A DNA stretch of 64,000 nt from a virus (lineage: Duplodnaviria > Heunggongvirae > Uroviricota > Caudoviricetes), in the IMG/VR virus record IMGVR_UViG_3300032046_000009; one strand, given 5' to 3'. The translations under genes were made by a program, and so were the position numbers. This document shows, one piece after another, positions 1-41,277 of this stretch (position 1 is its first letter; each line of letters opens with the position of its first letter). The notes under the pieces were generated by a model, which searched no databases, was not told where the DNA came from, and saw only the letters and a program-made list of their open reading frames with translations.

Positions 1-26
1 TAGAACAGGAACTATGAAGTCAAATA

Positions 27-101
27 GGTAGTATATAAGGGTTTCGGTATAGGGTAGTATATAAACGTTTCGGTATGGCGACCTATATAAAGGTTGTGGT
101 C
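27..101 (-). repeat. three tandem ~25-bp units, each with a TATA-like box
   Basis: units at 27-50, 52-75, 77-101; third matches class I core tatataaaggttgtggt. Confidence 0.6.
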
Positions 102-351
102 AACCGAAAGTTGAACTTCTGGGGGTAACTGTCTGGGGTGTAACGCACATAGGTATATATTAAGTTAAAATTTGTTTTTCCGCTAAGTTTGCAAGTCAAA
201 AAAAGAGGGAGTTTTATCGGTTCTGTTCGAGCAGTTCAAAAAATCGCTTATTAAACAGTTTGCCGAGATTTCCTTTTAATTTCGGTTGTGTCCGAATTCG
301 TCTTTTTTGTTCCATGATTATCACCAAAAAAACAAAAAGGGGGTAGGGGGG

Positions 352-612
352 TTAATAGCCGTATTTGTTGTTTAATTCGGTTCTGAATTGCTCTTTTTCT
401 GTTTCGGTCAAAGCGTCCGTCTTTTCTAGCAGTTTATGTATGACGGTTTCGAAGTCAAATTTCTCCCATGTTCTGTTTACGTAGCATACTTTAGCCTTTT
501 CGTATTCATTGCCATTTTTGAACAGCCTTGCATCATGTCTAAAACCGCTTCTTGTGCTCACAAATTCACAGAGTATTTCTGTGGTTTCATTCACTTTAAA
601 GATTCTTGCCAT
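352..612 (-). CDS. hypothetical small protein
   Basis: track 352..618; ATG 5 nt after leader AAGGACGTG; promoter just upstream. Confidence 0.6.
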   Translation of the reverse strand: MARIFKVNETTEILCEFVSTRSGFRHDARLFKNGNEYEKAKVCYVNRTWEKFDFETVIHKLLEKTDALTETEKEQFRTELNNKYGY

Positions 613-660
613 TTTCACACGTCCTTAATACCTATATGTCAGCGTCCCTTATAAACCTTT
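613..660 (-). promoter_or_regulatory. class I promoter cassette (BRE/TATA + AAGGACGTG leader)
   Basis: minus strand aaaggtttataagggacgctgacatataggtattaaggacgtg; TATA 649-656. Confidence 0.6.
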
Positions 661-943
661 AGGTGTTCGTTAATCCATAGCGATATTTGGCGTTAATGGT
701 TTGAATCACCTTAATAGCTGAGGCTTCAGGTTGAATAACCTGAACTTTACGGTATGCTAAAGCTATAAAGGTCTGACATTCACAGCATAAAACTTCGCAT
801 ACTTCTAAGTTGCTGTCAGGAACCGCTTCCCATGTGGTTTTTAGTTGTGCCTTTTTGTGCTCGCATGGGTTCTTATCTATGTCACGGTATCCGTCCATAA
901 CTTTTAGATAAGCGAAATATTCTTGTTGTTCTAGTTCGTCCAC
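659..943 (-). CDS. hypothetical Cys-containing protein
   Basis: track 659..949; GTG 5 nt after leader; TATA 981-988. Confidence 0.55.
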   Translation of the reverse strand: MDELEQQEYFAYLKVMDGYRDIDKNPCEHKKAQLKTTWEAVPDSNLEVCEVLCCECQTFIALAYRKVQVIQPEASAIKVIQTINAKYRYGLTNT

Positions 944-1033
944 GTTCACACGTCCTTAACTATAGTAATAGCATCGCCTCTTATAAAGGTTTGCCTAAAA
1001 TCGGAAAGTTTATATACTAGAAAAAAGGGTTGT

Positions 1034-1264
1034 TTAGAGTTGCTGTTCTTCAATGGCTTTTTCTCTGAGTCTAGCGATGAGTCTAAGATGTAGCTGTTCG
1101 ATTTGTTCAGGGTAGAGGTAAACAAAAGACTCTTCAATATCGGATTCGCTGAAAGCTATTGCCCCGTTGTCGTATTCGATAAGTTCAACTATGCTTGTGT
1201 TTGCCCCACAGCATCGATGACGCTTATTTACTAACTTAGTTCGACATTTTACATTATCTTTCAC
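1034..1264 (-). CDS. hypothetical protein
   Basis: track 1034..1321 runs through its own TATA (1301-1310); trimmed to GTG after leader. Confidence 0.5.
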   Translation of the reverse strand: MKDNVKCRTKLVNKRHRCCGANTSIVELIEYDNGAIAFSESDIEESFVYLYPEQIEQLHLRLIARLREKAIEEQQL

Positions 1265-1317
1265 TTTTCCACGTCCTTGTAATATAGTATAGCACCGACC
1301 TATATAAACGTTGCTAC

Positions 1318-1497
1318 TCAAAATTGAGTTCTGATGTCGGCGAATCTCGGTTGTCTCAGCCTAAACGCTCTTGTGAATGTAAAACCCTGTCTCGTGAGTT
1401 CAGCCCTCATATTTTCAACATTATGACCGCACAGTAAAAGCGTAGCTGTCCCGTGTGCCTCTGTTCGTGTTCCCGTAACGTAAAATAGCTGTGCCAT
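1318..1497 (-). CDS. hypothetical 59-aa protein (not in track)
   Basis: ATG after GGTGA; TATA 1529-1536; stop TGA inside TTGAGTAGC promoter element. Confidence 0.45.
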   Translation of the reverse strand: MAQLFYVTGTRTEAHGTATLLLCGHNVENMRAELTRQGFTFTRAFRLRQPRFADIRTQF

Positions 1498-1557
1498 ATT
1501 TTCACCAATAGCATATAGGCATCGTAGCTTATAAACCTTTACCTAAAAACCGAAGGT

Positions 1558-1665
1558 TTATAAAGGACGACCACAACAAGCGCAAAACGGTTTTGTGTGA
1601 ATCAAAGTTTTACCGTAACCTATTGATTCTTCAACATATCGCCATATAACCTTATTTTTCTCCAT
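1558..1665 (-). CDS. hypothetical 35-aa protein (not in track)
   Basis: ATG 5 nt after AAGGACGGTG leader; hand translation. Confidence 0.3.
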   Translation of the reverse strand: MEKNKVIWRYVEESIGYGKTLIHTKPFCACCGRPL

Positions 1666-1892
1666 TTTGTCACCGTCCTTAATCAGTTGATTAATTGGTG
1701 AGGCTTACGGATTCGCACCGTCAAACCCGAACCTACGCGAAGTTTGCACCTTCGCACGATTTGAGGCTTCGGTTTATAAGTCCTCGCCTCGCCTCTTCGG
1801 TTGTGCACCGAGTTCGCTACCGAGTAGAGCAAGTCCTCAATAGTATAATAGTACCGTCCTTTATAAAGGTTTCTGTACTAAAGTGTACGCAA

Positions 1893-1945
1893 AGGTTTAT
1901 ATACCCGTGTGCTATAGTAGTATTAGGGACGGTGGCGACACGAAT
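1893..1945 (+). promoter_or_regulatory. plus-strand copy of the class I promoter cassette
   Basis: gcaaaggtttatatacccgtgtgctatagtagtattagggacggtgg read on plus strand. Confidence 0.5.
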
Positions 1946-2086
1946 CGGATATTACATGGACACGAATGCCATGAGTTCGGTTGCACCACGAGTTGAACTT
2001 TTGGTGTTCCGAAAAAATAATAGAAAAAAGGTGTCGGGAGTCCCGTTTAGTGTTTTGCACTTTTTTGGGTTATCCGTCTTTACGCT

Positions 2087-2164
2087 CTACCGTTCATCGA
2101 CTTACACTCCTATCGAACGTTTCGAACCGTTCTACCGTTCATCGGTAAGCACTCCTATCGAGCG
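2087..2164. repeat. 33-bp direct repeat, two copies 45 bp apart
   Basis: ctaccgttcatcgacttacactcctatcgaacg / ctaccgttcatcggtaagcactcctatcgagcg; ggctaattgtccct x2 follows. Confidence 0.7.
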
Positions 2165-2663
2165 TGTGTCAGAAGGCTAATTGTCCCTTTGTTAAGGGCT
2201 AATTGTCCCTCGTCCTTGTGAGGCTTCACGAGTTCGCCGTCTTGGGTCGCCCGCGCCTCAATAATATACTATGTCAGCGTGGTATATAAACCTTTCTCAA
2301 TTTGTGATTATAGAAAGTTGAACTATTGTCCCTTGCTTATAAAGGTTTCGACTTAATCAGTTGATTAAAAAATGCCAAATTCGCCGTTCCGCTTCGCCGT
2401 ACCGTTCCATCAATACCTACGATGTTTCCGAATTTCGTGATGAAAAGTGGGCAACTGTGATTGAAAAGCATGGGAAAAGACCATACCTACACGTCTGTTC
2501 ACGATTCATCACAATGGGAGCTATGGGAAAAAAGCATGGTATTGTGGTGAATAGTGAGCAACTGTGTATTGTGTGGCTAAACGAAAAATTCTCTAAGTTT
2601 TCAGTTAATAGAAAGTTGTACTAAAAAAAGAAGGGAAAGTTGCACCGTCTATATCACGGTGGT

Positions 2664-2897
2664 TTAACTCCACAGGCGCACCACAAGTCTGTTTACCGTT
2701 GCAAACTCTGGGTTGACCACGTTAGTTATCCCTGCAAGTTTAACTATTTCGCCGATTATGGTTATTCTTGCAGTTGTTCCGCAGTTGATACATTCGCTTG
2801 TACGCTGTGGTAGTCTCGCAGTTGCACTTTTTATAGCCTTCACGGATTTAACTATCGTGTGGTGTCTGCATTTGGGACAATTTCCGAAATATTCCAT
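2664..2897 (-). CDS. small Zn-ribbon protein
   Basis: CPKC...CINC; TAATG overlap with upstream gene. Confidence 0.6.
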   Translation of the reverse strand: MEYFGNCPKCRHHTIVKSVKAIKSATARLPQRTSECINCGTTARITIIGEIVKLAGITNVVNPEFATVNRLVVRLWS

Positions 2898-3490
2898 TAT
2901 TCATTCACCTCTTTATTAGTTGTATAGTAGTCTAGTGAGTTAGGGCTGACGGTTGCACTTTTGATTATCTTTATTATTCGTTTCGCTCTTATATAATCTA
3001 TGTGTCCGTGTTTGCCCTTATATACTACAGGAACCGTTAGACTTCGAATCCCGACCCGTTTTAAGAGCCTTCTACGCAATGCGTCACGTCTTACGACTAA
3101 AAGGTAATTCTTGTGCCAATTTGGGCTTATTTCTATGTCAATTTGGGTCTTAGGGTCAAAGAAGTCTAATTTGAAAATGTGCCAGCGGTTGCACCTATCC
3201 TTAACTTTTATGCGTACCTCATGGTTCAACTCTAGGTTAAAGTCGTCCACTAATCTCTTGAATTGTGCCTCTAAATGGGTAAATACGTTAGGATTACGCT
3301 TAGAATTCAATTTCCAGCAATTTCCAAAGCCCTTTCCTTTAGCCTTGCCTTTTTCACAGTCCTTATAGTGTTTAAAGAATTCTAAGAACTGCACTTGTGA
3401 TTCTAGGCTTAAATCGAAGAGTCCGATAACGTCCGTGTCCTCTAGTTGTGTTAAGTGTTCGCATATTACGCTAAGTTGTAAGTGTTCCAC
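2897..3490 (-). CDS. hypothetical protein, weak PD-(D/E)xK / DUF559-like C-terminus
   Basis: 197 aa; GTG 5 nt after leader; D..IEI..H..R..L..G pattern only suggestive. Confidence 0.6.
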   Translation of the reverse strand: MEHLQLSVICEHLTQLEDTDVIGLFDLSLESQVQFLEFFKHYKDCEKGKAKGKGFGNCWKLNSKRNPNVFTHLEAQFKRLVDDFNLELNHEVRIKVKDRCNRWHIFKLDFFDPKTQIDIEISPNWHKNYLLVVRRDALRRRLLKRVGIRSLTVPVVYKGKHGHIDYIRAKRIIKIIKSATVSPNSLDYYTTNKEVNE

Positions 3491-3564
3491 GTTCGCACGT
3501 CCTTCAATACTATAATGTCAGCGTCCTATATAAACCTTCGCATTAAAAAAAGAAGGGAATTGTT

Positions 3565-3858
3565 TCAAACGAAATACGGATGTCCGTTTATGCTTATCAG
3601 TTGACTCTTCTGTGAGCATATCCGCTTTAAATCTTCGCCGTATTTAAGTATTTGTTCAGGAGAAACCACGGTTGAACTTTCGATTATCCAAATTTGCACG
3701 TTGTCCAGATACAATTTTCCGTTGTCCAGCCATAGACCCTCACAGTTGTTAATGATAGTTAAACCGCCGAATGCACCGCACAGTTGAACTTTCACAGCAT
3801 CCAATTTCGTTTTATCTGGGTTCTCAGTTGTGACCACGTAGATTTTTATTTCTACCAT
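3565..3858 (-). CDS. hypothetical protein
   Basis: 97 aa; ATG 5 nt after AAGGACGTG; TATA 3895-3902. Confidence 0.6.
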   Translation of the reverse strand: MVEIKIYVVTTENPDKTKLDAVKVQLCGAFGGLTIINNCEGLWLDNGKLYLDNVQIWIIESSTVVSPEQILKYGEDLKRICSQKSQLISINGHPYFV

Positions 3859-3894
3859 CTTTCCACGTCCTTAATAGTGTAATAGCACCGTGAC

Positions 3895-4416
3895 TTATAA
3901 ACCTTCGCTTTTTTTGGTAAACTTAGCGAATTTTGAGATAACGCTCTGCTGTAGCTCTAGCTGTGCATCTATTGTACATGTCCCGATAAACTCACAATAG
4001 ACCCACTCGTTTATCGTTTCTTGTATCAATTCCAACACTAGAGGGTCTGGATTATTATCAAGCAATTCATTTATTGCTGTTTTCCAAGCATAAACCTCTT
4101 GTTTCAGCAAAAATTCTCTATCGTATGACAGGCAAAATTCGGCAATATCCATATTAGGGTAAAGCGTTTGATATACGATAATATGTCCTATTTCGTGATT
4201 CAGAATTAACGCTTTTACCTTATCAGGTATTGAACCATAACCATTAATATAATTAGTTGAATAGTTCTTAGTTCCAATAATGATTTTTCGCTCAGGGTAA
4301 AATGAAGCCTTCGAATGATTCCAGCTTAGGATATAACTGTACTCGATACGGAAACCTAGTTTTTGCGCTAAGTTTTCAAGTCGTGTCAATTCATCCTTAT
4401 CGTTCAAATGTTCCAC
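3895..4416 (-). CDS. HExxH metallopeptidase-like protein
   Basis: LNHEIGH motif; tandem TATA boxes 4441-4453 and 4479-4486. Confidence 0.6.
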   Translation of the reverse strand: MEHLNDKDELTRLENLAQKLGFRIEYSYILSWNHSKASFYPERKIIIGTKNYSTNYINGYGSIPDKVKALILNHEIGHIIVYQTLYPNMDIAEFCLSYDREFLLKQEVYAWKTAINELLDNNPDPLVLELIQETINEWVYCEFIGTCTIDAQLELQQSVISKFAKFTKKSEGL

Positions 4417-4504
4417 GTCCTTAAAGATGATATAACACCGTCCTTAATAAAGAGTTCTATGGTTTTTCTTGTAATAGGTATATAAACCTTTCGCTCTGTT
4501 CGAA

Positions 4505-4800
4505 CCTGTCCGTGCCAGCGATACCCAAAAGGACTGTATATCAAACCCGTTTGTCAAAAACAAGCCCTGAGCATGTCGTTCGGACGAATACGCTCAATTC
4601 CCTTTATATTTGCTCAACGATATTGAGCGAGCAAGCCCCGTTTAGTCGAATAAGGCTAAATCGTGGAGTTCGGGTCTATGTTAGGCATGGTCAATTCAAC
4701 ATCAGTCCTATGGTAACTATGGTTCGATGACGTTCGTTTAGCTAAATCAGCCTTAGAGCTAGTCATCGCGGCGAGTTCGAATCTATAAGATGCCTCTATT
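4505..4800. ncRNA. candidate noncoding RNA locus, paralog of 19105-19400
   Basis: ORF-poor; shared blocks cccaaaggactgt, cctgagc, aacgatattga, catcagtcctatgg. Confidence 0.4.
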
Positions 4801-5871
4801 AACTGATTCCGCCTCAAATCGGGGTCCGATGATGTGTAGCTAAAGTGTATCTGTGTTCTACAACTAAAAGCAAACGTTTATATAGGACGCTGAGAACGTA
4901 GTATTTGGCGGCGGCGGTTCGCGTTAAGCGTATATTACATAGTTACGCATCTTATGAATTCAGTTGCACTAAAAGTTCAACTTTGGGTTGCCTCTCTCCC
5001 GTGTCTTGCGTCAAGCTACTAGCAGATACGCACAGCCCTATATAAACCTTCCTATTAAAGTGTAGAACAGAGATACAATAGGAACCTTTATATACCTCGC
5101 TATCCTCTTCTCAGCGCGCCTCAAATCGTGCTTCGTTTGGCTAATCCGCCTCGATTCAGCCCTAATTGAACATGGTTGTTCTAGGCAAACATTTATAAGC
5201 AACCATGCCTTTTATATGGTATGTATCGAAAGACGTGATTAAACCCAGAGTTGTACTTTATGGTTCGAATTTTGCTAAGTTTGCACATATATAAGCAACC
5301 GATAGGTTTAAATAGCTACTATATAAGGCTATCGGCGATACGCTTAAATAGGGGGTATATAAACGTTTTGGTCTAGCACAACTTCTAGTGTAACAAAAAG
5401 TGCAACTTTTGGGGTAACGCCTCGGCTAACAGGAAATTGTCCGTAGAATGCAACTGAGAATGTCACATAAGCGCACATAGGCGTTTTTTTGATTCCAATT
5501 ATTTTCTGGTCAGAGCTTCCACGCCGTCCGTTTTACCTGTCGGTTTGCCCTGCTTAATCACCTGATTAAAAGTTCTCCACAGTTCCGCGAGCCTTTCGGA
5601 TAATAAAGTCACCGTTTGCCAAAACGTCTTTTTTTCAGGGCTATTTTGGCATTCAGGGGAGCTAGAGGGGGGGGACTTGTTTATAATGGGGTATTAATCA
5701 GTTGTTTAAAATAGAGCTATAGCACTATGTCAGTCAGCACGTTGTCGTATGCCAACTATTCACTCCATAGACCCTTTACGTATGACAACCCTTTTCTTTA
5801 CGTATGTAAAGGTCATCAGTATCTTTTATCGAGCATTTCTTTTATCCATGTACTCCACTTTTTAGCTATTC

Positions 5872-6040
5872 TGGGGGTCTAGTACCACTTTTAGGGGTCT
5901 TTTGAGGGGTATAGGGAGTCATCTAGGGGGTTAGTGATTAGAGGTCGTTAGGGGTTCGTGGTTAAGGGGGTCGGACGGGGGTTCTCTGGGGTTCGGGAAT
6001 TTACTTAACAATTTCTGTTAATGGTTAGGGGGGTCGGGGT
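5872..6040 (+). repeat. G-tract iteron array (about 10 runs of G4-G6)
   Basis: taggggtc, gaggggta, tagggggtt, ttaggggttc, taagggggtcgg, acgggggttc, ctggggttcgg, ttaggggggtcgggg. Confidence 0.75.
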
Positions 6041-6389
6041 AAAGGGTGCATGTGGCATGAGAGAGCCTGTTACGAGCTACGATTCGTTAATCAGTTGATT
6101 AAAAGTTCGGGTTTGCCTGTGTCGCCTTGCTACGGGCTTGGCAGAACTTGGGTCAGTCTGGGTTGACTAGGTGAAATCAAAAAGTGTTAAGGATTCTTAA
6201 CAAAAATTGTCTAAGTTTGCAGAGGGTAAAAGAGGGGGTTTCGAGAGAGGTTAGAAGGAATGAGTAGAACGGGCGAAGGGAAAGCGCGAGAAAGGACGGT
6301 GAAAAAATGGAACAATATCCCTTCGCCCTTGATAGAGTAGTATGTCAAACGGGTATATAAAGGTTGTGGTAGAAAGACCATGCTCGAAT

Positions 6390-8149: not shown

Positions 8150-8533
8150 TCAGAGAGGAATAACACCTAGCCATTTATAAACTTCGGTGTTAATTTCAGC
8201 CATACCCGAACCCGTCCATACGTTGTGAGGAATAGAAGTATGAAGAGACTCTGGAATGAAAATAACGTGTGATTTATCGATGTGGTGTCCTTCTGAACCG
8301 TTAAAAGGTGCGTTTAGAATAATAGAGCCTAATTCTCGGCGTTTAGCTTGAATCCTAGCTTGCGTTTTCTTGTGATAAATTCGATGTTCTCTCTCATATT
8401 TTCTCTCATAGTTTGGGTTTTCTAATCTCCATTTCCTCTTATATAACTTTACCTCTTTCTTATGTTTCAAACGCCAATTCTTGTAATATGTAATACGTTT
8501 TTCTCTTGAATCTGTGAGCGTCATTTGATTCAC
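8150..8533 (-). CDS. His-rich nuclease-like protein, paralog of 9378..9704
   Basis: shared KRRELG and GHHID..VIxIPxxLHxSIxHxVWTGxGMAEIN. Confidence 0.65.
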   Translation of the reverse strand: MNQMTLTDSREKRITYYKNWRLKHKKEVKLYKRKWRLENPNYERKYEREHRIYHKKTQARIQAKRRELGSIILNAPFNGSEGHHIDKSHVIFIPESLHTSIPHNVWTGSGMAEINTEVYKWLGVIPL

Positions 8534-8579
8534 ATTAAACTAAATGTTAAACGTGCTTATAAAGGTTTCGGTAAAAGTT

Positions 8580-8830
8580 AGTTGGAACACGGGGGAGAGT
8601 GTGCCCCCGTGTTCTCGGACGTGGTTTGTGGTTTTTTGTCAGTTGAAGCACAAGTTGGTGGAATGCCCCGTGTACGGGACAAACCTTCGGTCTTGTGCGG
8701 TTCCGTTCTTTGTCGCTTATTTCGAACGTAACCCTAGCGACTATGAAGGGTCGGCAAGTTTGTGAGCGTATAGCTCTTTGGTCTTGCGCGCCCTTTGTTT
8801 AGACGCAAGCGCGTCATGTATTATTGAGAT
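8580..8830 (-). ncRNA. candidate GC-rich structured RNA
   Basis: TATA 8841-8848 fires leftward; no minus ORF; perfect 11-bp hairpin gaacacggggg/cccccgtgttc 8585-8614. Confidence 0.45.
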
Positions 8831-16667: not shown

Positions 16668-16805
16668 CTTTATTACCTTACGAGTATAGATGCCAGCGTC
16701 CTATTTAAATGTTTGCTTAGAAAGACCATGTTCATTTTAGTTAATCAACTGATTAAAATTTCTCAAAACCCCTCTCCCGCCCGAACCAAAGGTTGCACCA
16801 AAAGT

Positions 16806-19005: not shown

Positions 19006-19104
19006 AGTTAATCAACTGTTTAAAAAAGTGAAAGGTTGCACTCTGAGTGACTTAAATGTTGATGGTCAAAGGCATGGTCGAAACTTTTATTACACCTAGA
19101 GTTT

Positions 19105-19400
19105 AACTGTGCCCCGAAGTAGTGTCCCCCAAAGGACTGTGGATAATGCCCGACTCTCAATTTCATCCCCTGAGCGTTCTCTTCGGGGCAAATCGTTCAA
19201 TAATTTCGAACATATATAAACGATATTGAACGAGTGTCCTTCTTTTGTTCGAAGAGGCTCAAATAATGCTTTTCGACCAATGGAAACGATGTTAAAAAGA
19301 CCATCAGTCCTATGGAATCTGGGTTTCGTTCGGGTTCGTTTTGGAAAATCAGTCTTGGAAAACGGCAACGCGCAGACTTCGAATGTAAAGGCTTCGAGTT
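19105..19400. ncRNA. candidate noncoding RNA locus, paralog of 4505-4800
   Basis: 10-bp long-range pair gccccgaag/cttcggggc (19112-19193); no credible ORF. Confidence 0.4.
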
Positions 19401-19544: not shown

Positions 19545-19620
19545 GCTGGAAATTGAGCATGGCGTTTTTAGGGAAAGATTTATAAGCTACCGTGTTGTAG
19601 TATTCACAAAGAGGCACAAA
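19545..19620 (+). promoter_or_regulatory. full class I promoter cassette on plus strand
   Basis: ttgagcatggcgtttttagggaaagatttataagctaccg read on plus strand. Confidence 0.55.
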
Positions 19621-19621
19621 T

Positions 19622-19753
19622 ATGTTTCCGTTTGATACTCTGGGTTTCATAATAGGTTTAATTGTTCTTGCAAAAGTAGTTAAAACTTTCAGGCGACCCG
19701 TTGGTTGTCCCGACCCGTCAGAACTTGAGGAAGCACTAGAGGACGAAGGCTAG
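19622..19753 (+). CDS. 43-aa membrane protein (not in track)
   Basis: ATG after AGAGGCAC; one TM; hairpin + T-run 19825-19845 downstream. Confidence 0.45.
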   Translation: MFPFDTLGFIIGLIVLAKVVKTFRRPVGCPDPSELEEALEDEG

Positions 19754-20028
19754 GTCACACTTTCGGTGTAACTTTCCGTCCCCTCGAAAATTAAATTTTT
19801 AGTAGAATCCTGAGTGTCACATAACGCACATAGGCGTTTTTTCTTCCCAATTAGATTTCGGTTTATGGTGAAGCCCTCTGCCAGCCCCCAACGTATTCCC
19901 CAGACTTTTAATCAACTGATTAAAAAAGCACCGACTTCAGGCTTCAGTTCCCATTGGCTTCGCCCTAGCATCCAGAACGTCTTTTTCCCTAGTCTATTTA
20001 CCTGTCAAATGTAGCTAGGGGTAGGGGA

Positions 20029-20154
20029 CTAATCGAACCGAACTTTCTCTTTTTGTTTATACAATAGTTTTAGACATTCGGGACAAAAAAGTGCACGACT
20101 TCCAGCGAAGGGTTTGCAGAACCAAAGTTTTCCACATCTAAAACATTCTATCAT
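20029..20154 (-). CDS. 41-aa Zn-ribbon protein (not in track), last cassette of array E
   Basis: CFRCG..CPEC; ends EKVRFD + TAG; abuts G-rich hub. Confidence 0.5.
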   Translation of the reverse strand: MIECFRCGKLWFCKPFAGSRALFCPECLKLLYKQKEKVRFD

Positions 20155-20165
20155 TTTCTCTTCTG

Positions 20166-20396
20166 TCAATCGAAACTCACCTTTTCTGGAATCCGAAACA
20201 TAAGTTCAGAAATTCTAATATCGACTTTTCTCTTCTTTATCAGACAAACCATTTGCATTGGAAAATTTCTCTCTTTTTTATGTAGTTCCGCAGACCTAGT
20301 TAATCGGTTGCTCAATGCTTGTAAAGTATGAATTTCACTTTTCAATTCGACAAGTGGTTTCTTTTTCCATTGTGCAAGCGGAGATTTATGGGTCAT
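20166..20396 (-). CDS. basic small protein
   Basis: ATG in JM 20393; ends EKVSFD. Confidence 0.65.
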   Translation of the reverse strand: MTHKSPLAQWKKKPLVELKSEIHTLQALSNRLTRSAELHKKERNFPMQMVCLIKKRKVDIRISELMFRIPEKVSFD

Positions 20397-28434: not shown

Positions 28435-29115
28435 CTATTGTTTGGTATTTTTGTTTTTGGTTTCTTTGACGCAAACACACTTTCGATTGTTGAGCAATGC
28501 CCCAATTATCAGTCCTAGTATGAAAGTCAGTATGATTATCAAGAGCCAACATGGGTTACAGTCTTTCTTGTTGTCGGTGATATAGACGTAGAATGGCTTG
28601 TCAACGTAAACAACTCTGTTCACGTAAAGGACTTTCTCGATGTACTTGATGACTTCTTTTGGCACTTCGATATAGACCGTGTTGTTGCAGTATTTGATTA
28701 TTTCGACTTCCTTGATGACTTCGACAGGCACTTCCTTAATGACTTCTTTGATGACCTCTATTGGCACTTCAACGTAAACGACTGTTTCAACAACTTTGTC
28801 AACATAGACAATCTTTTCAACTATTCTGTCAATGTAAACAGTCTTTTCCACTATTCTGTCTTTGTAAACGATTTTCTCAACAACTCTGTCAACGTACACT
28901 ATTCTGTCCACGTAAACAGGAACTTCAACCGTTTGGTTGACGTAAACAATTCTGTCCACGTAGATTATTTTGGTCTTGTTGTTACAAGAGTTGCCATCGT
29001 CACCGTCATTGCAATTTGGCTTATCATTGTCGTCAGAAGCAAATGCTGGAACTATCACTATTGGTATCACTAACGCAATCAAAAGCGCGATTATTATCAA
29101 ATTTCTTTTTTTCAT
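28435..29115 (-). CDS. repeat-rich type I membrane protein
   Basis: N-terminal signal/TM, C-terminal TM; VYVDRIVEKIVY-type repeats, about 33-bp DNA period. Confidence 0.7.
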   Translation of the reverse strand: MKKRNLIIIALLIALVIPIVIVPAFASDDNDKPNCNDGDDGNSCNNKTKIIYVDRIVYVNQTVEVPVYVDRIVYVDRVVEKIVYKDRIVEKTVYIDRIVEKIVYVDKVVETVVYVEVPIEVIKEVIKEVPVEVIKEVEIIKYCNNTVYIEVPKEVIKYIEKVLYVNRVVYVDKPFYVYITDNKKDCNPCWLLIIILTFILGLIIGALLNNRKCVCVKETKNKNTKQ

Positions 29116-34994: not shown

Positions 34995-34995
34995 T

Positions 34996-35825: not shown

Positions 35826-35889
35826 TTCAATCACTACACACTAAGATAGCAATGTCCCTTATAAACTTTCCCTAAGAATTGCCATGCTC

Positions 35890-36300
35890 AGTTTCGAAGT
35901 TAGTTCGAAAAAGTATATGAATTAAATTTAAGATTTAATGGGACTGTTATATAATTTTTCATGGTCTTTTCCCATAGGTTATAAACTATTCCATAAATCC
36001 TAAATATAATCCTTGATAGATTTCGGAGTTAGTTCGAAACATCAAAAAGTCCATACTTTTACCATAGACTATTCGAACAATTTTCGAAAAGAAAATATAA
36101 TTATTTAGGATTTTATGGATTAAAATAACTATCCGATTGCCCAGAGAAGCCATAAGAATGCCCCGTTTGACAAAAGGACATAGATATAAAAAATATTAAA
36201 ATTATATTTTAGAATTTTAATCAGGTGATTAACCGTGGTCGTATATTGCATGGACAATATAGGATAATTAATCAACTGATTAAAAATTCGAAAAATCGGG
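35890..36300. other. AT-rich ORF-free region with TTCGAA repeats and an inverted repeat
   Basis: tttcgaagttagttcgaaa / tttcggagttagttcgaaac; IR ccataaatcctaaatataat vs ataattatttaggattttatgg. Confidence 0.5.
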
Positions 36301-36582: not shown

Positions 36583-36639
36583 AGCTGAGAAGTAGTATGT
36601 GCAAACTACTATATAAAGGTTGTGGTAGAAGAACCATGC

Positions 36640-37688: not shown

Positions 37689-37921
37689 GTGAACTCGACC
37701 TTTTCCTTATCAACATACTCTATTCTGAAAACTTTACCACATTTCTTGCAAGTTACTTTAAGAGGATAAGGGTCGTGTCCTTCAACAACTTTATATCCCA
37801 TTAAGAATTTATGTCCGTTCGGAACCCATTTTATGTCTTTTTGCTCAAAAGCAAATCCCCATTCATTCCATCCGTTTCCACATTTAGGACATTTTACGTT
37901 TTGTCTATTTTTCGGTTTCAA
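37685..37921 (-). CDS. small Zn-ribbon protein
   Basis: TTG start; CPKCG..CKKCG; ends EKVEFT. Confidence 0.7.
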   Translation of the reverse strand: MKPKNRQNVKCPKCGNGWNEWGFAFEQKDIKWVPNGHKFLMGYKVVEGHDPYPLKVTCKKCGKVFRIEYVDKEKVEFT

Positions 37922-38121
37922 GTAAATTGCACCCTTATTCTATCATCCACTTTAGGTTTCAAGTCGAAAATCTCTCGCTGTATATTCTTATATCTGAGCC
38001 ATTTATTTTCTTGTTTAAAATGTTCTTCACAAAGAAAAATTATTTCTACTCTGTTCACCTTTTTGTAAACGTGAACTTCTTTTACAGCTTCTTTATTGCA
38101 CATCGGAATTTGGCATTTCAA
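37918..38121 (-). CDS. small Cys protein
   Basis: TTG start; ends IRVQFT. Confidence 0.65.
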   Translation of the reverse strand: MKCQIPMCNKEAVKEVHVYKKVNRVEIIFLCEEHFKQENKWLRYKNIQREIFDLKPKVDDRIRVQFT

Positions 38122-38393
38122 GTGAATTGCACCTTCACAAAATCGTCCGCGAACTCTTTGGCTAATTCGTTTGCTTCACCTATTCCCTTTGAAAATATTA
38201 TAGACGCGCCCCATCTTTTCTTTTCAATTTTGATATTTGGGTCTTTCTCTTTAAGAAATTTCAACCACTTCCAAAAACAACCACAATCAGCACCAATATA
38301 AAATACAGGATTTAGTTTAAGAATGTTGGTTGTCCCCGTTTCCCTAAACATCGTGGCTTTTCCGTTTTCCTTTCCGCATTTAGCACAAATCAT
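38118..38393 (-). CDS. small Zn-ribbon protein (family B)
   Basis: track trimmed to ATG in JM 38390; CAKCG..CGCFWKW. Confidence 0.65.
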   Translation of the reverse strand: MICAKCGKENGKATMFRETGTTNILKLNPVFYIGADCGCFWKWLKFLKEKDPNIKIEKKRWGASIIFSKGIGEANELAKEFADDFVKVQFT

Positions 38394-38578
38394 GTGAACA
38401 GCACCTTTTCTTTGACAAACTCGTAATTTTGGCAACAACAGCCAGCACGATAAGGTATATTATTTCTACCTTTCTGAATTTCTTTTGGGTCTATTCCTTT
38501 TTCACTATCTATGGAACCACGACAATTTTTGTATTTCTTACAGTTGAAGCAACCACGATTAATTGATAAACCACTCAA
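38390..38578 (-). CDS. small Cys protein (family C)
   Basis: track trimmed to TTG in JM 38575; GCFNC..GCCC. Confidence 0.65.
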   Translation of the reverse strand: MSGLSINRGCFNCKKYKNCRGSIDSEKGIDPKEIQKGRNNIPYRAGCCCQNYEFVKEKVLFT

Positions 38579-38763
38579 GTAAAGTTCACCTTTTCCTTTA
38601 CCTCTATGCAAGTATGTCTAGGTTGTGGTTCTCCACTATTACTAACTGCTGTCCAGAGGCAATGTTCACAGCAGAAGTTTTGTTCACCAATATCGTGAGC
38701 GTCCCCGTATTGTTCATAAGACCGTCCGCAAACGTCACACTTAACAATTTGCCAAGTCGTCAA
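38575..38763 (-). CDS. small Zn-ribbon protein
   Basis: TTG start; CDVCG..CCEHC; ends EKVNFT. Confidence 0.65.
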   Translation of the reverse strand: MTTWQIVKCDVCGRSYEQYGDAHDIGEQNFCCEHCLWTAVSNSGEPQPRHTCIEVKEKVNFT

Positions 38764-38999
38764 GTGAACACAACCTTCTCTCTAGTATAGTCTGCAATTT
38801 TCCCCTTAAATACTTCCCAAGTTGGGTTTATTTTCTTAGGATATTTAGCAACAAAAAATGTATTATGGTCAGCAAAAAACTCTAGCCATTTTCTTAGACA
38901 AGAACCACAAAGAATAGCGTCTATAGAATGAGGATATTTTAGTTTATCTTCTGTCACCGTGAAAACTCGTCCACATTTCTCACAGTTTCTTTTAGTCAA
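38760..38999 (-). CDS. small Zn-ribbon protein (family B)
   Basis: track trimmed to TTG 38997-38999; CEKCG..CGSCLRKW. Confidence 0.6.
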   Translation of the reverse strand: MTKRNCEKCGRVFTVTEDKLKYPHSIDAILCGSCLRKWLEFFADHNTFFVAKYPKKINPTWEVFKGKIADYTREKVVFT

Positions 39000-39225
39000 A
39001 GCTAACAACTTCTGGACGTTCCTCTTCTGCAAGAACTTCCTTTGCACTTCCTTCCATGTTTCCTAAAATATAAGTGAATCCTTTTTCTTTACCTTCCGTA
39101 CAAAGTTCATACCATCTTGCAAGTCGTCTGAGATGTTCTTCACTTTTAAAATGAGTATCAACGCCTCTCTTTGTTGCAAAGTTTTTCTTGCACAAACCAC
39201 AACGCGCGTAGAATTTCTTAGGCAT
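38992..39225 (-). CDS. C2H2 zinc-finger protein
   Basis: C-x2-C-x12-H-x5-H (CGLCKKNF..HFKSEEH); ends EVVSFD. Confidence 0.65.
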   Translation of the reverse strand: MPKKFYARCGLCKKNFATKRGVDTHFKSEEHLRRLARWYELCTEGKEKGFTYILGNMEGSAKEVLAEEERPEVVSFD

Positions 39226-39315
39226 TAATCAAGTTCTCCTAAGTCGAATGGATTCCCGTGAGGCATCGGTCTAGTCGGGCGTTCATCGTCCTCAATGAAA
39301 GGACGCGGAATGAAT

Positions 39316-39972
39316 CTATGCTTCACCATTTATTATCTCCTTCAATTCCTTTATTCTTCTTCTATCGTAATATGTGTTTCGTTCATAATAGTTGACGTTT
39401 ACTTTTACGAATTGTCCCTTATCTTTTTTTGCTTTCCTGACTTGTTCCAAATCATCGGCTAGTTCTTTCTTCCAATATTCCAATTCCCGTTCAGCCCAGA
39501 ACTTTGTCAAATCCCATCTTTTACTTTTCGGATAATAGACATACAACATACTTCGCATGGGATTTTCTTCATGCTGTTTCTTGTCATAAGTTGAATAACC
39601 AGAGTGCATATAGAAAGATTCGAGTTTTTCTCTTTCCATGAATTGATGAATTGTATTTAGGTAATGTTCGACAGTTTCCATGTATTCGGGTGTTTGAGCG
39701 TCAATCTCCCCTCTGAGAGAAAGAAGGCATGACCAATATTGGTGTGACCAAATCCATCTACCTGTCGGATACCACGGATAAGGTATGTCCGAGTTCTCGA
39801 AAGACTTCTTTACTAACGCTAGAAAAACTTCACCGAGTTCATCAAGAACGTCATAATATTCATCTGTTGTACCTTTTCTACTCACACGAAACGGGTGTCG
39901 AATAGCTAAATGGTGAAGGTCTTGCAACCGTTCCATTGTAACTATAATTTTCTTTCTCTTTTCCTCAATCAT
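39316..39972 (-). CDS. hypothetical protein
   Basis: 218 aa; TAATG overlap. Confidence 0.7.
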   Translation of the reverse strand: MIEEKRKKIIVTMERLQDLHHLAIRHPFRVSRKGTTDEYYDVLDELGEVFLALVKKSFENSDIPYPWYPTGRWIWSHQYWSCLLSLRGEIDAQTPEYMETVEHYLNTIHQFMEREKLESFYMHSGYSTYDKKQHEENPMRSMLYVYYPKSKRWDLTKFWAERELEYWKKELADDLEQVRKAKKDKGQFVKVNVNYYERNTYYDRRRIKELKEIINGEA

Positions 39973-40193
39973 TATTCATCCTTCCCTGTATCAAGAAAGT
40001 GCATTGCTTCCATGACGCTAACGTATTGGTTTGTTCTCGTTAGAATCTTGAAAAATTCGGAGTCAAGATATTCAGTTAAGACTTTTGGGTGTTTCTTTGC
40101 AACCCATTGAATGAGACATTGAGCATTATCGAGATTGGTTTTCGGTCTGTTCCTGATTCCTATCTGCTTCATTGTATCTCTAACTTTTCCCAT
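39972..40193 (-). CDS. hypothetical small protein, first gene of array M
   Basis: 73 aa; TATA 40227-40234. Confidence 0.65.
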   Translation of the reverse strand: MGKVRDTMKQIGIRNRPKTNLDNAQCLIQWVAKKHPKVLTEYLDSEFFKILTRTNQYVSVMEAMHFLDTGKDE

Positions 40194-40265
40194 TAATCGG
40201 TCACTACCTAGAGATATAGCTTTCCCCTATATAAAGGTTTAGTAAGAACTCCCATGCTCAAAACC
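40194..40265 (-). promoter_or_regulatory. class I promoter for array M
   Basis: ttcccctatataaaggtttagtaagaactcccatgctcaaaa. Confidence 0.6.
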
Positions 40266-40481
40266 CTATGAGTATCGCTGGTTTGCATGGACTTCTCCAT
40301 GCCGAAGGTCATAAAAGGAACTATTTTAATCAGTTGATTAAACATTCGGTTTCCATGACCAGCAGGGTTGGGAGCTTTTTTGGCACTTCGAAAAATTTCG
40401 AAAGCCATTCTCTCCATACAAACATCCCCAACCAGCAAAAAAGTGATGGTCATTTGCGAGACCTGTAAAAATTATCTGCCT

Positions 40482-40614
40482 CGAAATTTGCTCGTTTTCG
40501 GAAATTCGACTCAGTTCGAAACTCACCCTATGGGAAATTTTCTCGGTGGGAAAGGGCGGGAGCCAAATCGCCCCGAAATTTGCTCGTATTGCCGAGTTCG
40601 ATTCAGTTCGGGGG
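40482..40614. repeat. about 41-bp direct repeat, two copies
   Basis: cgaaatttgctcgttttcggaaattcgactcagttcgaaac / cgaaatttgctcgtattgccgagttcgattcagttcggggg. Confidence 0.7.
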
Positions 40615-41088
40615 TCAGATGGCTTTTTTCCACCCCCTCGGCTCCATGCCCCAAACTTTTAATCAGTTGATTAATAACTACCGAAAGGTTTATATGGTGC
40701 AACTCGTATTATATAAGGAAGAGTTGAACTTTCAATGACACAGAAAGTTACACTAACCGTAACCTCGAAAGTGACCCAGACGGAAACACGGAAAAGGGTA
40801 ACGCAGAAAAACCTTTAGGAAAAAACCATCGGTCACACTTTTTGAAACCACATACCCACACATAGGCGGCGCGCAGGCGAAAATTTGATTTTGGTCGGCG
40901 AACTTTGTGATTTCTGTTATGATTGTTATTTTGGTATTATTTTTATTTCCTATTTCCTGAGCATTTCGATTTAGATTTACTAAGGATTCGAGAAAAGAAA
41001 ATAACTGAAAACGTCTTTTTTTCAGGGAGTTTTGAACGTCTAGGGGAGCTAGGGGTAGGGGACTATCCCAGAGAAAGTTGGTATATGC

Positions 41089-41277
41089 TCAGAAGGAAGC
41101 GGGTGGCGGGGAAGCTGTTGTAATAAAGTCTGGGCACTTGCCATTCTCCTTTATTGCCTGAACGATAAGGTCGTTTACTGGAATACGCTTGCAGTATTCT
41201 TCCCTTAAACATTCCTTACATTTTGCACGTTCCTTTATCTCTTCAAATGGTATCTTATTCACCACCCTTATTGCCAT
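41089..41277 (-). CDS. small Cys protein, last gene of array N
   Basis: 62 aa; CKEC..C..C; abuts G-rich hub. Confidence 0.55.
   Translation of the reverse strand: MAIRVVNKIPFEEIKERAKCKECLREEYCKRIPVNDLIVQAIKENGKCPDFITTASPPPASF

What the first reader, a model, noticed from the sequence alone, without database searches (positions are those of the whole stretch)
1..41090. Four copies of a mosaic intergenic hub
Hubs at 95-352, 5385-5680, 19755-20030 and 40725-41065 share ordered blocks. First come GTAAC/AGTTGAACTT words. Next is (G)TCACATAACGCACATAGGCG, followed by a T-run in two copies (5471-5490, 19825-19845). A TTAATCA..TGATTAA palindrome, or a degenerate form of it, follows in the first three hubs; I did not see one inside the fourth. 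Then AACGTCTTTTTTTCAGGG (5621-5640, 19976-19990, 41011-41027, 291-310). Last is GGGGAGCTAGGGGTAGGGGAC (5655-5677, 20011-20030, 41041-41064, 339-351). In three of the four hubs this block directly abuts the 3' end of a minus-strand unit. Plus-strand promoters at 19545 and 40683 fire into the hubs, so short antisense-direction RNAs ending at the CACATAGGCG-T(n) element are plausible. Possible roles are bidirectional terminators or insulators, replication or packaging landmarks, or recombination sites.
Basis: seen in the sequence. Interest (0 to 1): 0.65.

Follow-up and report, generated by a model that had tools for sequence, protein, structure and literature searches.

The report
Repeated fixed-length terminator-like intergenic module
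A large uncultivated, probably archaeal, virus carries at least four copies of a ~205-bp non-coding module with fixed internal spacing, sitting where short backward-facing gene cassettes meet the ends of long forward operons; it most likely stops transcription from both sides and marks where cassettes get swapped.

Summary
Three hubs are clearly related copies: H2 5462-5677, H3 19815-20029 and H4 40848-41063. H1 (144-351) is a degenerate fourth copy. The ordered blocks are a CATAGG tandem ending in CACATAGGCG, a pair of T-tracts, AACGTC-T5-8, and AGCTAGGGG..GGGGAC. The palindrome and the GTAAC/AGTTGAAC words occur across the whole window and are not hub features.

Three points are new:
- The spacing is fixed. 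Block 1 to CGTC is 151-153 bp and CGTC to the end of the G block is 49-52 bp. This held in all 12 versions I measured, although the spacers do not align.
- Each hub lies downstream of a plus-strand promoter and a variable cassette. The G block lies 0-25 nt from the stop codon of the last minus-strand gene.
- The left flank is replaced wholesale between strains.

I found no stable RNA fold, no Rfam family, no conserved G-quadruplex and no GC-skew break.

My best reading (confidence about 0.45) is a convergent terminator or insulator of the archaeal U-tract type, probably protein-bound. It may also serve as a patch of homology for cassette exchange, as PeSLs do in T4-like phages. This is a new variant of a known kind, of moderate interest. 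No transcript data were available.

The parts
27..95 (-). H1 left flank: three tandem minus-oriented BRE/TATA boxes with a 26-nt period. The plus-strand promoter that fires into H1 lies just left of the window start.
   Evidence: TRF period 26. Promoter-matrix hits at 44-, 70- and 96-. The + promoter GGAAGGTTTATAAGTGACGG is seen in L004 9300-9330, reverse strand.
144..177 (+). H1 block 1 (CGCACATAGG, a single copy) and block 2, a T-tract pair (AAAATTTGTTTTT).
   Evidence: The leave-out HMM hits 144-194 at E=0.0015-0.009.
295..351 (+). H1 degenerate block 3 (AATTCGTCTTTTTT) and G block (GGGGGTAGGGGGG). On the minus strand the same stretch reads CCCCCUUUUUGUUUUUUU directly after the stop codon.
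   Evidence: Geometry is 153/52 bp.
352..612 (-). 86-aa gene whose stop codon (352-354) directly abuts the H1 G block.
   Evidence: gene called on 19 contigs.
5300..5370 (.). H2 left flank: interleaved TATA boxes. Plus-oriented: TTTAAATA 5307-5314 and CTTAAATA 5343-5350. Minus-oriented: 5320-5327 and 5356-5363.
5372..5461 (+). H2 variable plus-strand unit. It has no ORF, carries AGTGTAAC/AGTGCAAC words, and is replaced by unrelated sequence in strains L006/L022 and L021.
   Evidence: homology to L006/L022 ends at window 5462.
5462..5508 (+). H2 block 1 (GTCACATAAGCG CACATAGGCG) followed by T7 and a second T4 tract.
5554..5569 (.). Copy of the genome-wide operator-like palindrome TTAATCACCTGATTAA inside the H2 spacer.
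5621..5677 (+). H2 block 3 (AAAACGTCTTTTTTTCAGGG) and G block (GGGGAGCTAGAGGGGGGGGAC).
19553..19600 (+). Plus-oriented class-A promoter that fires into H3: TTGAGCATGG at 19553-19562 and TATA at 19578-19586.
   Evidence: (19574+, scores 13.3 and 20.4).
19622..19753 (+). 43-aa membrane-protein ORF. This is the plus-strand cassette of H3 and is conserved in relatives L052-L054.
   Evidence: Local alignment score 40 against shuffles 19 +/- 4.
19815..19860 (+). H3 block 1 (TGTCACATAACGCACATAGGCG), then T6, then block 2.
19908..19923 (.). Palindrome copy inside the H3 spacer.
19976..20029 (+). H3 block 3 (AACGTCTTTTTCCCTAG) and G block (AGCTAGGGGTAGGGGAC).
20029..20169 (-). Last gene (46-aa zinc-finger protein) of the long minus-strand array. 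Its stop codon overlaps the last base of the G block.
40681..40715 (+). Plus-oriented BRE/TATA promoter (CCGAAAGGTTTATATGG) that fires into H4.
   Evidence: (40684+, score 17.3).
40735..40846 (+). H4 plus-strand cassette: a 27-aa ORF (40735-40818) followed by the 3' remnant (AAAAACCATCGGTCACACTTTTTGA) of an HNH-like ORF that is intact in L051.
   Evidence: The ORF is kept in L055.
40848..40894 (+). H4 block 1 (CCACATACCCA CACATAGGCG), a GC-rich stretch, and block 2 (AAAATTTGATTTTGG).
41008..41063 (+). H4 block 3 (AAAACGTCTTTTTTTCAGGG) and G block (GGGGAGCTAGGGGTAGGGGAC).
41089..41277 (-). 62-aa minus-strand gene that ends 25 nt from the H4 G block. In L051 a transglutaminase-like gene abuts the block directly; L055 has the same GGGGAGTTATTG junction and a transglutaminase-core gene in the locus.

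Best explanation
Each hub core runs about 205 bp, from the CATAGG tandem to the G block. It is the space between two converging transcription units.

**What meets at a hub**
- From the left comes a short plus-strand unit driven by its own BRE/TATA promoter. Its content varies: a 43-aa membrane protein, a 27-aa ORF with an HNH-gene remnant, or non-coding RNA.
- From the right comes the end of a long minus-strand operon.

**Plus-strand direction.** I propose that transcripts stop at U-tracts without hairpins, as in archaea.
- The first stop is CACATAGGCG-U6-8 and/or AAAUUUGUUUUU.
- A backup stop lies 152 bp later at AACGUC-U5-8.
- As a result, antisense RNA would not enter the operon.

**Minus-strand direction.** The RNA leaves the last stop codon and immediately exposes a C-rich, CC-dinucleotide-rich block (GUCCCCUACCCCUAGCUCCCC). 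U4 tracts follow (GACGUUUU and others). I infer that this is an entry or cleavage site for factor-dependent termination (aCPSF1/FttA).

**Geometry and exchange.** The invariant non-U motifs and the fixed 152/50-bp spacing suggest that one or more sequence-specific proteins sit on the module as a roadblock or boundary complex. Because the module is repeated and conserved, it may also serve as a patch of homology at which the plus-strand cassettes are swapped between strains.

**Shown versus inferred.** Shown: the anatomy, paralogy, spacing, flank replacement and promoter orientation. Inferred: termination itself, the factor, and the archaeal host.
For: **Position and orientation**
- There is a plus-oriented promoter 100-250 nt upstream of block 1 at H3 and H4, H2 and H1.
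- The promoter grammar reads BRE-like CCGAAAG + TTTAWATA toward the gene. The independent plus-strand gene 46025-46453 shows the same grammar, which fixes its orientation.
- The G block lies 0-25 nt from the minus-strand stop codon at H1, H3, H4, L051 and L052.

**T-tracts**
- Block 3 has T5-T8 in all 12 versions, including distant L052 and L007.
- A T6-T8 tract, or a T3 tract plus a T4-5 tract, follows block 1.
- Minus-strand units elsewhere in the window end in plain multi-U tracts: U4, U5, U8 at 36370-36330 and U7, U6 at 28430-28400. U-tract termination is therefore the style of this genome.
- Methanococcus terminators are U4+ tracts. Two tracts give the highest efficiency, and no hairpin is required (PMC8716108).
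- aCPSF1/FttA cleaves exposed RNA at CA or CC dinucleotides once translation has ended (PMC8501993).

**Archaeal affinity**
- The promoter core TTTATATA matches the methanogen 'box A' (PMC2699501).
- The best NCBIfam matches of the KaiC-like ATPase are all archaeal families.
- The RNA ligase has a single match among phage records, in a Methanofastidiosa virus.

**Selection on geometry**
- Spacing is 151-153 bp and 49-52 bp (plus a manual count on L052).
- The spacers are only 53-63% identical between the paralogs.
- Adjacent segments vary in length. The distance from the + ORF stop to block 1 is 74 nt in the window and 33 nt in L052.

**Cassette exchange**
- The left flank is replaced in L006/L022, L021 and L051 with the break at or near block 1.
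- This resembles PeSL terminator/promoter repeats in T4-like phages (PMC4122927).
Against: - There are no transcript data, so termination is inferred from sequence alone.
- U-tracts in the minus direction are weak at H2 (U4 only). At H3 the first good tract, U6, lies about 105 nt past the stop.
- Other convergent junctions have no hub: 46453/46603, and 49537/49519 where the genes overlap. The module is therefore not a general requirement.
- A plain terminator does not need CACATAGGCG, AACGTC or AGCTAGGGG, nor a 152-bp ruler. The protein-bound part of the model is untested.
- The host domain is not proven. The single promoter-pattern match in a Bathyarchaeia genome could be chance; my estimate of the expectation is about 0.07.
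- If the host is bacterial, hairpin-less T-tracts would be poor terminators. The AACGC/GCGTT hairpin at block 1 is not conserved in L021 or L022.
Confidence: 0.45

Rival explanations
1. The hub is a recombination site. One version makes it the target or docking sequence of a homing endonuclease or site-specific recombinase that moves the plus-strand cassettes. The other makes it purely a homology patch with no role in transcription.
For: - Cassette replacement between strains ends at the CATAGG tandem.
- In L051 an HNH-like ORF sits directly against the hub. The window keeps only that ORF's last ~25 nt, and GGTCACACTTT is shared with H3.
- Several short blocks at fixed spacing recall att-type nucleoprotein sites.
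- The cassettes are diverse: HNH-like, DUF4258-like (L007) and a small membrane protein.
Against: - No recombinase was detected among the window proteins I scanned.
- The HNH assignment is below threshold: Pfam HNH E=0.33 and DUF968 E=0.09.
- The L051 allele that contains the HNH-like gene keeps an intact CATAGG tandem, which is unusual for a homing target.
- Strain breakpoints also fall at ordinary promoters and palindromes, at window ~659 and ~2350. Generic homologous recombination is enough to explain them.
- This model does not explain the conserved T-tracts or the abutment to stop codons.
Confidence: 0.2
2. The hub is a landmark at the DNA level, such as a replication origin, a partition site or a chromatin boundary. 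Proteins would bind block 1, block 3 and the G block and wrap or position about 150 bp of DNA, for example five archaeal histone dimers of 30 bp each.
For: - The 151-153 bp and 49-52 bp spacing is invariant across versions whose spacers do not align.
- No RNA structure explains that spacing.
- The H4 spacer is AT-rich and looks like an unwinding element.
- Next to H2 there is an array of 14 G-runs of four or more bases between 5873 and 6036.
Against: - Cumulative GC skew falls steadily through H3 and H4 with no inflection.
- The H2 and H3 spacers are not AT-rich.
- Gene orientation does not switch at the hubs.
- The histone idea is speculation and I did not test it.
- There are 4 copies in the first 41 kb and none in 41-64 kb.
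Confidence: 0.15
3. The virus infects a bacterium. The hub would then combine a weak intrinsic terminator for the plus-strand unit (AACGC-ACATAG-GCGTT hairpin plus a U-run) with a Rho-dependent terminator for the minus-strand operon, where the C-rich, G-poor block after the stop codon acts as a rut site.
For: - The terminator scan reports a 6-bp stem plus T-tail at 5469-5486.
- The C-rich unstructured RNA directly after the last stop codon matches the description of rut sites (PMC8501993).
- Shine-Dalgarno-like GGTG motifs precede the genes.
Against: - The hairpin is absent from L021, L022 and H4 while the sequence itself is kept.
- The scan found fewer terminator-like sites than the shuffles did (1 against 2.7).
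- No sigma-70 geometry fits the promoters. The conserved core is BRE + TTTATATA, 33-45 nt before the start codon.
- Protein affinities are archaeal.
Confidence: 0.1
4. The hub encodes a structured non-coding RNA, or a small protein, of conserved length.
For: - Length is conserved.
- A plus-strand promoter lies upstream.
- The block-3 U-run could pair with the G block through G-U pairs on the plus-strand RNA only (H3 fold).
Against: - Folding z-scores range from -1.5 to +1.2 for all segments and for the full cores, on both strands.
- There is no Rfam match.
- No reading frame is shared. The palindrome shifts phase between H2 and H3. The 37-aa minus-strand ORF in H2 collects about 6 amino-acid changes between strains by my hand translation of the sequences.
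- G-U pairing follows trivially from placing a U-run next to a G-run, and it is lost in L052.
Confidence: 0.05

Closest known systems
Archaeal U-tract terminators assisted by aCPSF1/FttA (Methanococcus maripaludis, Thermococcus kodakarensis)
   Same: - T/U tracts of 4-8 bases, often two within about 30 nt, with no conserved hairpin.
- They sit at the ends of transcription units.
- C-rich (CC/CA) RNA is exposed after the last stop codon, where FttA is reported to cleave (PMC8716108, PMC8501993).
   Different: - The hubs add invariant non-U motifs: CACATAGGCG, AACGTC and AGCTAGGGG..GGGGAC.
- They keep a fixed 152/50-bp geometry.
- They are paralogous copies, not independent simple signals.
- No 3'-end data exist here.
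PeSL (promoter-early stem-loop) composite terminator/promoter repeats of T4-like phages
   Same: - Short conserved regulatory modules repeated in the intergenic DNA of a large virus.
- They lie at the boundaries of variable genes.
- Insertions, deletions and replacements between close relatives end in the repeats, which implies exchange by homologous recombination (PMC4122927, PMC2839356).
   Different: - A PeSL is a bacterial sigma-70 early promoter plus a stem-loop terminator of a few tens of bp.
- The hub is about 205 bp with no stem-loop.
- Its signals are of the archaeal type, and it closes opposite-strand cassettes.
Phage morons (promoter-gene-terminator cassettes inserted between backbone genes)
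   Same: The plus-strand units carry their own promoter and a terminator-like 3' end. They sit between backbone operons and differ between strains. This comparison rests on my own knowledge.
   Different: Here one conserved 3' module is shared by unrelated cassettes, and the cassettes face against the backbone.
Roadblock terminators (Pol I Reb1/TTF-I site plus a T-rich element; mitochondrial mTERF)
   Same: A T-rich release element lies at a fixed short distance upstream of a sequence-specific site: the T-tract, then about 30 nt, then the G block. This comparison rests on my own knowledge and is an analogy only.
   Different: No binding protein is known here, and the system is in a different domain of life. 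Untested.

Membership tests
Archaeal U-tract (intrinsic or aCPSF1-assisted) terminator | One or more tracts of at least 4-5 T on the non-template strand at the 3' end of a unit | tested here: met
   Plus strand: block 3 has T5-T8 in all 12 versions, and T6-T8 (or a T3 tract plus a T4-5 tract) follows block 1. Minus strand: U5+U7 at H1, three U4 tracts at H4, only U4 at H2, and U6 about 105 nt out at H3.
Archaeal U-tract (intrinsic or aCPSF1-assisted) terminator | Transcript 3' ends map to the tract | not testable with these tools
   No RNA data are available.
Archaeal U-tract (intrinsic or aCPSF1-assisted) terminator | The host uses archaeal RNA polymerase | tested here: inconclusive
   The BRE/TATA promoter core TTTATATA matches methanogen box A (PMC2699501). 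The KaiC-like ATPase matches archaeal families. One promoter-pattern match lies in a Bathyarchaeia genome. There is no direct link to a host.
Bacterial intrinsic terminator | A GC-rich hairpin immediately followed by a U-run, with the pairing conserved | tested here: not met
   The 5-6 bp stem at H2 and H3 is lost in L021, L022 and H4 while the sequence is kept. Fold z-scores are not significant.
PeSL-like regulatory repeat that mediates modular shuffling | A repeated regulatory module at which insertions, deletions or replacements between close relatives end | tested here: met
   Homology of L006/L022 to the window ends at window 5462, which is block 1. The L051 cassette swap ends about 45 nt before block 1.
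PeSL-like regulatory repeat that mediates modular shuffling | A sigma-70 early promoter plus a stem-loop | tested here: not met
   There is no stem-loop and no sigma-70 geometry.
G-quadruplex element | Four G-tracts of at least 3 bases with short loops, conserved in all copies | tested here: not met
   H3 has two tracts, L009 has a single G7 run, and L055 has lost the middle tract.
Replication origin | A skew inflection, a strand switch, or an AT-rich unwinding element flanked by initiator sites | tested here: not met
   Cumulative GC skew falls steadily through 19.8 kb and 41 kb. The genes stay on the minus strand on both sides. Only the H4 spacer is AT-rich.
Known structured RNA family (Rfam) | A covariance-model match or a significant fold | tested here: not met
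   No match at gathering score. The only match at E<=1 is an irrelevant miRNA model at 36206. Fold z-scores range from -1.5 to +1.2.
Site-specific recombination site (att or attC type) | A cognate recombinase nearby and an inverted-repeat core | tested here: inconclusive
   No recombinase domain was found in the proteins I scanned. There is no inverted-repeat core. Not every small ORF was scanned.

The most novel reading that the evidence does not exclude
The hub is a nucleoprotein machine with a fixed shape. Virus- or host-encoded sequence-specific factors would bind the CATAGG tandem, AACGTC-T(n) and the G block at set distances of 152 and 50 bp. Together they would form a roadblock-type, two-directional transcription insulator, or a chromatin boundary, in a very large archaeal virus. 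Sequence-specific, factor-dependent insulation of this kind has not, to my knowledge, been described for archaea or their viruses. The same complex could mark the docking point for cassette exchange.
Probability: 0.15. Interest if true: 0.75.

Novelty: new variant of a known kind. Interest (0 to 1): 0.5.

Why it matters
If the reading is right, the hubs show how a very large virus keeps rare backward-facing cassettes from sending antisense transcripts into its long operons. This virus is probably archaeal and has almost every gene on one strand.

The hubs may also act as fixed docking points where new cassettes are swapped in. The strict 152/50-bp ruler across diverged copies gives a concrete handle for experiments:
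- changing the spacing
- pulling down whatever binds the blocks
- mapping RNA 3' ends

Sequence-specific steps in archaeal transcription termination are still poorly known, and these experiments would address them. The lineage itself is absent from the INPHARED and IMG/VR collections. It appears only as metagenome contigs of up to 152 kb.

Tried and rejected
- **Structured RNA.** I folded the plus-strand units, the block 3-4 segments and the whole cores on both strands. All z-scores fell between -1.5 and +1.2. Rfam gave nothing relevant in either mode. ARAGORN found no tRNA.
- **U-run/G-run helix.** A G-U helix between block 3 and the G block looked attractive in H2, H3 and L009. It follows trivially from the base composition and fails in L052 and L055. 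I did not pursue it.
- **Small conserved ORF in the spacer.** No frame is shared, and the strain differences I translated by hand are all amino-acid changes.
- **G-quadruplex.** It is not conserved.
- **Relatives in public virus collections.** Megablast and tblastn against the phage records gave nothing close. IMG/VR pattern scans gave 0 hits or only chance hits inside coding regions. Of the 38 hits in the metagenome pattern scan, 34 were unrelated chance matches.
- **Host search.** A protein search of genome contigs found nothing. The promoter-pattern scan gave one Bathyarchaeia contig, which shares no protein homology with the window.
- **Fifth hub left of the window.** The TAGGGGTAGGGG match at L003 14801 turned out to be a field dense in TATA boxes, not a hub.
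- **Distant relatives.** L008 has no recognisable hub and uses a different palindrome.

Full report
**Setting**

The window is about 38% GC. Nearly all ORFs are small and lie on the minus strand, and there is no tRNA. It has no nucleotide match among deposited phages, and only remote protein matches. The proteins I could recognise are:
- an RNA ligase
- a KaiC/RadB-like ATPase
- a MoxR-type AAA ATPase
- an SPFH protein
- glycosyltransferases
- a trypsin-like protease

The same sequence occurs on ENA metagenome contigs of 86, 137 and 152 kb. If the two longest contigs are collinear they span about 204 kb. That figure assumes no circular wrap-around.

**The observation**

The ordered blocks are real and far beyond chance.
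- CACATAGGCG occurs three times, only on the + strand, against 0.03 expected.
- The composite pattern AACGTCTTTTT-N20-45-AGCTA-N0-3-GGGG occurs three times against 0.00 expected.

Leave-one-type-out profile searches show that H2, H3 and H4 are related over most of the core.
- A model built from H2-type copies finds H3 at E=1.4e-15 and H4 at E=1.2e-6.
- A model built from H4-type copies finds H2 at E=3.5e-15 and H3 at E=3.8e-6.

H1 is degenerate. When it is left out of the model, only its block 1-2 part scores (E about 0.002-0.009).

- The palindrome TTAATCAnnTGATTAA has 20 exact copies, mostly next to promoters.
- The AGTTGAACTT/GTAAC words are enriched throughout the non-coding DNA (27 hits against 9.3 expected). 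They lie in the part of the hub that differs between strains.

A profile scan found no further hub in the window or in the 10 kb to its left.

**Genome grammar**

A 45-nt promoter repeat precedes most minus-strand genes. Its consensus is TTGAGCATGG-N3-TTCT-N5-AA-N2-TTTATATAGGACGcTG, placed 33-45 nt before the start codon.
- In 0.6-5.1 kb a second class lacks the upstream element and keeps only the BRE-like purine stretch and the TATA box.
- The plus-strand gene 46025-46453 has the same grammar on the + strand (CCGAAAGACTTAAATA, 33 nt, then ATG). This fixes the direction in which the motif reads.
- TTTATATA is the methanogen 'box A' TATA consensus (PMC2699501).
- The best family matches of the KaiC-like ATPase are all archaeal: thermo_KaiC_2 at 2e-32, then KaiC_arch_4, RadB and FlaH/ArlH.
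- One exact match to the 22-base promoter pattern lies in a Bathyarchaeia genome, next to thiolase and HMG-CoA synthase genes. I estimate the chance expectation at about 0.07.

I therefore treat the virus as probably archaeal, but this is not proven.

**Anatomy of a hub**

Every hub has a plus-oriented promoter 100-250 nt upstream of block 1.
- H3: 19553-19600.
- H4: 40681-40715.
- H2: the TATA boxes at 5307 and 5343.
- H1: just left of the window start.

What the promoter drives differs from hub to hub.
- H3 has a 43-aa membrane-protein ORF. It has a 40-aa positional ortholog in a relative of about 60% identity. The local alignment scores 40 against 19 +/- 4 for shuffles.
- H4 has a 27-aa ORF followed by the last ~25 nt of an HNH-like ORF. 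That ORF is intact in relative L051.
- H2 has about 90 nt with no ORF.
- The distant relative L007 has a 103-aa DUF4258-like ORF.

The conserved core follows these units (alignment).
- Block 1 is a tandem of CATAGG-type decamers ending in CACATAGGCG.
- Block 2 is the T-tracts that follow it.
- Block 3 is AAAACGTC-T5-8.
- Block 4 is AGCTAGGGG..GGGGA(C/G).

The G block then touches, or nearly touches, the stop codon of the last minus-strand gene.
- It touches at H1, H3 and L051.
- The gap is 8 nt in L052 and 25 nt at H4.
- At H2 the abutting minus-strand unit is non-coding.

**The ruler**

The distance from CACATAGG to CGTC is 151-153 bp in W_H1-H4, L003, L006/L022 (both their H1 and H2 copies), L021, L009, L051 and L055. 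It is 152 bp in distant L052, where block 1 has drifted to GACATATACC (counted by hand). The distance from CGTC to the last G of the G block is 49-52 bp.

The spacers are only 53-63% identical between H1, H2/H3 and H4, which is close to random. Neighbouring non-coding segments vary in length. The + ORF stop to block 1 is 74 nt in the window and 33 nt in L052. Length is therefore constrained independently of sequence. The most distant relative, L007, does not keep the spacing (177 or 192 bp, counted).

**Mosaicism**

Between strains the right part of H2, from block 1 to the G block, is kept (94% identity between the window and L022 over the 155-nt spacer). Everything to the left of block 1 is replaced by unrelated sequence in L006/L022 and L021. 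At H4 the cassette differs between the window and L051 up to about 45 nt before block 1.

Breakpoints also fall at ordinary promoter and palindrome repeats. L003 lacks window 660-2350, and L005 switches parent at about 2350. The hubs are therefore one class of recombination-prone repeat among several, much like PeSLs in T4-like phages (PMC4122927).

**What it is not**

- It is not a stable structured RNA. All fold z-scores lie between -1.5 and +1.2, and Rfam gives nothing relevant.
- It is not a conserved ORF.
- It is not a conserved G-quadruplex. H3, L009 and L055 lack four G-tracts.
- It is not a bacterial hairpin terminator. The AACGC/GCGTT stem is lost in L021, L022 and H4 while the sequence is kept.
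- Skew gives no sign of an origin.

**Most likely mechanism**

Archaeal termination needs only U-tracts. Two U4+ tracts are most efficient, and aCPSF1/FttA binds them (PMC8716108). FttA cleaves exposed RNA at CC or CA dinucleotides once translation has stopped (PMC8501993).

Elsewhere in the window, minus-strand units end in plain multi-U tracts. The hubs carry two tiers of T-tracts on the + strand, 152 bp apart. Directly after the last stop codon they carry a CC-rich block, followed by U4 tracts on the minus strand.

I therefore read the hub as a convergent terminator or insulator. It would stop the backward-facing cassette before its RNA runs antisense into the operon, and it would end the operon itself.

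The invariant non-U motifs and the ruler suggest a bound protein complex. This part is inference. Confidence in the overall reading is about 0.45. The rivals and their weights are listed separately.

**Limits**

- There are no transcript data and no host assignment.
- About two thirds of the genome was not inspected.
- H1 is only a weak member by sequence.
- Several convergent junctions have no hub, so the module belongs to one class of cassette site and is not universal.

Noticed in passing
window 6340-61000; for example 16688-16740 and 60817-60869: A 45-nt promoter repeat lies upstream of most minus-strand genes. Its consensus is TTGAGCATGG-N3-TTCT-N5-AA-N2-TTTATATAGGACGcTG, and 25 or more copies were counted. 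The TGA inside TTGAGC is often the stop codon of the previous gene. A second class in 0.6-5.1 kb lacks the upstream element and shares a conserved leader, TAAGGACGTG..ATG.
   Followed up: partly
window, 20 exact sites; for example 9267, 9332, 16741, 28249, 36268, 40659: The 16-bp palindrome TTAATCAnnTGATTAA (0.01 expected by chance) sits upstream of, or over the start of, promoters. It is probably the operator of a dimeric regulator. Distant relative L008 instead carries TTAACCAATTGGTTAA at 4138-4153.
   Followed up: partly
window about 20000-46000: There are dozens of small CxxC...CxxC zinc-finger genes. Their products end in the same peptide, (K)EKVxFT* or EKVxFD*. Their stop codons overlap the next start codon as ATGA or TTGA. 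The conserved DNA, GAGAAGGTGnnnTTCAC[AT]TGA, also serves as the next gene's ribosome-binding site.
   Followed up: partly
window 1891-2010 and 4872-5000; L004 9560-9700 (reverse strand): A repeated promoter-driven plus-strand non-coding element reads ..GGCGGCGG..CGCGTTAAGCGTATATTACATAG..AGTTGCAC..AGTTCAACTTTGGG. Each copy inside the window faces a convergent minus-strand promoter (2295-, 5051-), so overlapping sense and antisense RNAs are expected.
   Followed up: no
window 4498-4823 and 19100-19390; possibly 40340-40650: A ~300-nt non-coding element is conserved at 75-79% in relatives L003, L006 and L009, and it has a paralog next to H3. It is rich in GAGTTCGAATCT and GAGTTCGGGTCT words that resemble a tRNA T-loop. 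ARAGORN and Rfam find nothing.
   Followed up: partly
window 5860-6050: An array of 14 G-runs of four or more bases (GGGGTC, GGGGTT and similar) is conserved in L009. It lies downstream of the class-A promoter at 6366- with no ORF between. It would therefore be transcribed as a C-rich non-coding RNA that ends at the H2 G block.
   Followed up: no
window 27-95: Three promoters lie in tandem with an exact 26-nt period (TATATAAnnGTTTCGGTAT). Similar TATA-box arrays, some arranged as inverted pairs, occur at 5300-5370, L003 14650-14900 and L022.
   Followed up: no
L057 4237-4268 (Candidatus Bathyarchaeia genome JBEKKX010000005.1): This is the only genome in the 185,579-species collection with an exact match to the class-A promoter pattern. 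It lies next to host thiolase and HMG-CoA synthase genes and upstream of unknown ORFs. It shares no protein homology with the window. It may be a clue to the host, or to a host regulator that the virus borrows.
   Followed up: partly
whole window and contigs ena:ERZ27247916:k141_6238898 and ena:ERZ27247725:k141_946335: The lineage is absent from INPHARED and IMG/VR. Contigs of 152 and 137 kb overlap the window. If they are collinear they span about 204 kb, which to my knowledge would be unusually large for an archaeal virus. The left extension carries a B12-dependent ribonucleotide reductase and a dCMP deaminase.
   Followed up: partly
window 660-2350, 8150-8594 and about 2350: Insertions, deletions and parent switches between strains end at promoter or palindrome repeats. 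L003 lacks 660-2350 and 8152-8594. L005 is 99.4% identical to the window left of 2356 but only 88.6% identical to its right.
   Followed up: partly
window 28589-28980: A repeat with an 18/30-nt period (TCAACGTAAACnnCT..) lies inside the 226-aa ORF 28435-29115. The protein is therefore repetitive, and it gives a weak Pfam IMCp match.
   Followed up: no
L007 3728-4100 (reverse strand): The most distant relative has a diverged hub. It reads GTCGCACATAGACG, then CAC-T7-CAGACC, then 24 nt, then GGGTGGGGGAGAAC, ending close to a gene end. It follows an opposite-strand DUF4258-like ORF. Its spacing is 177/192 bp, not 152 bp.
   Followed up: partly
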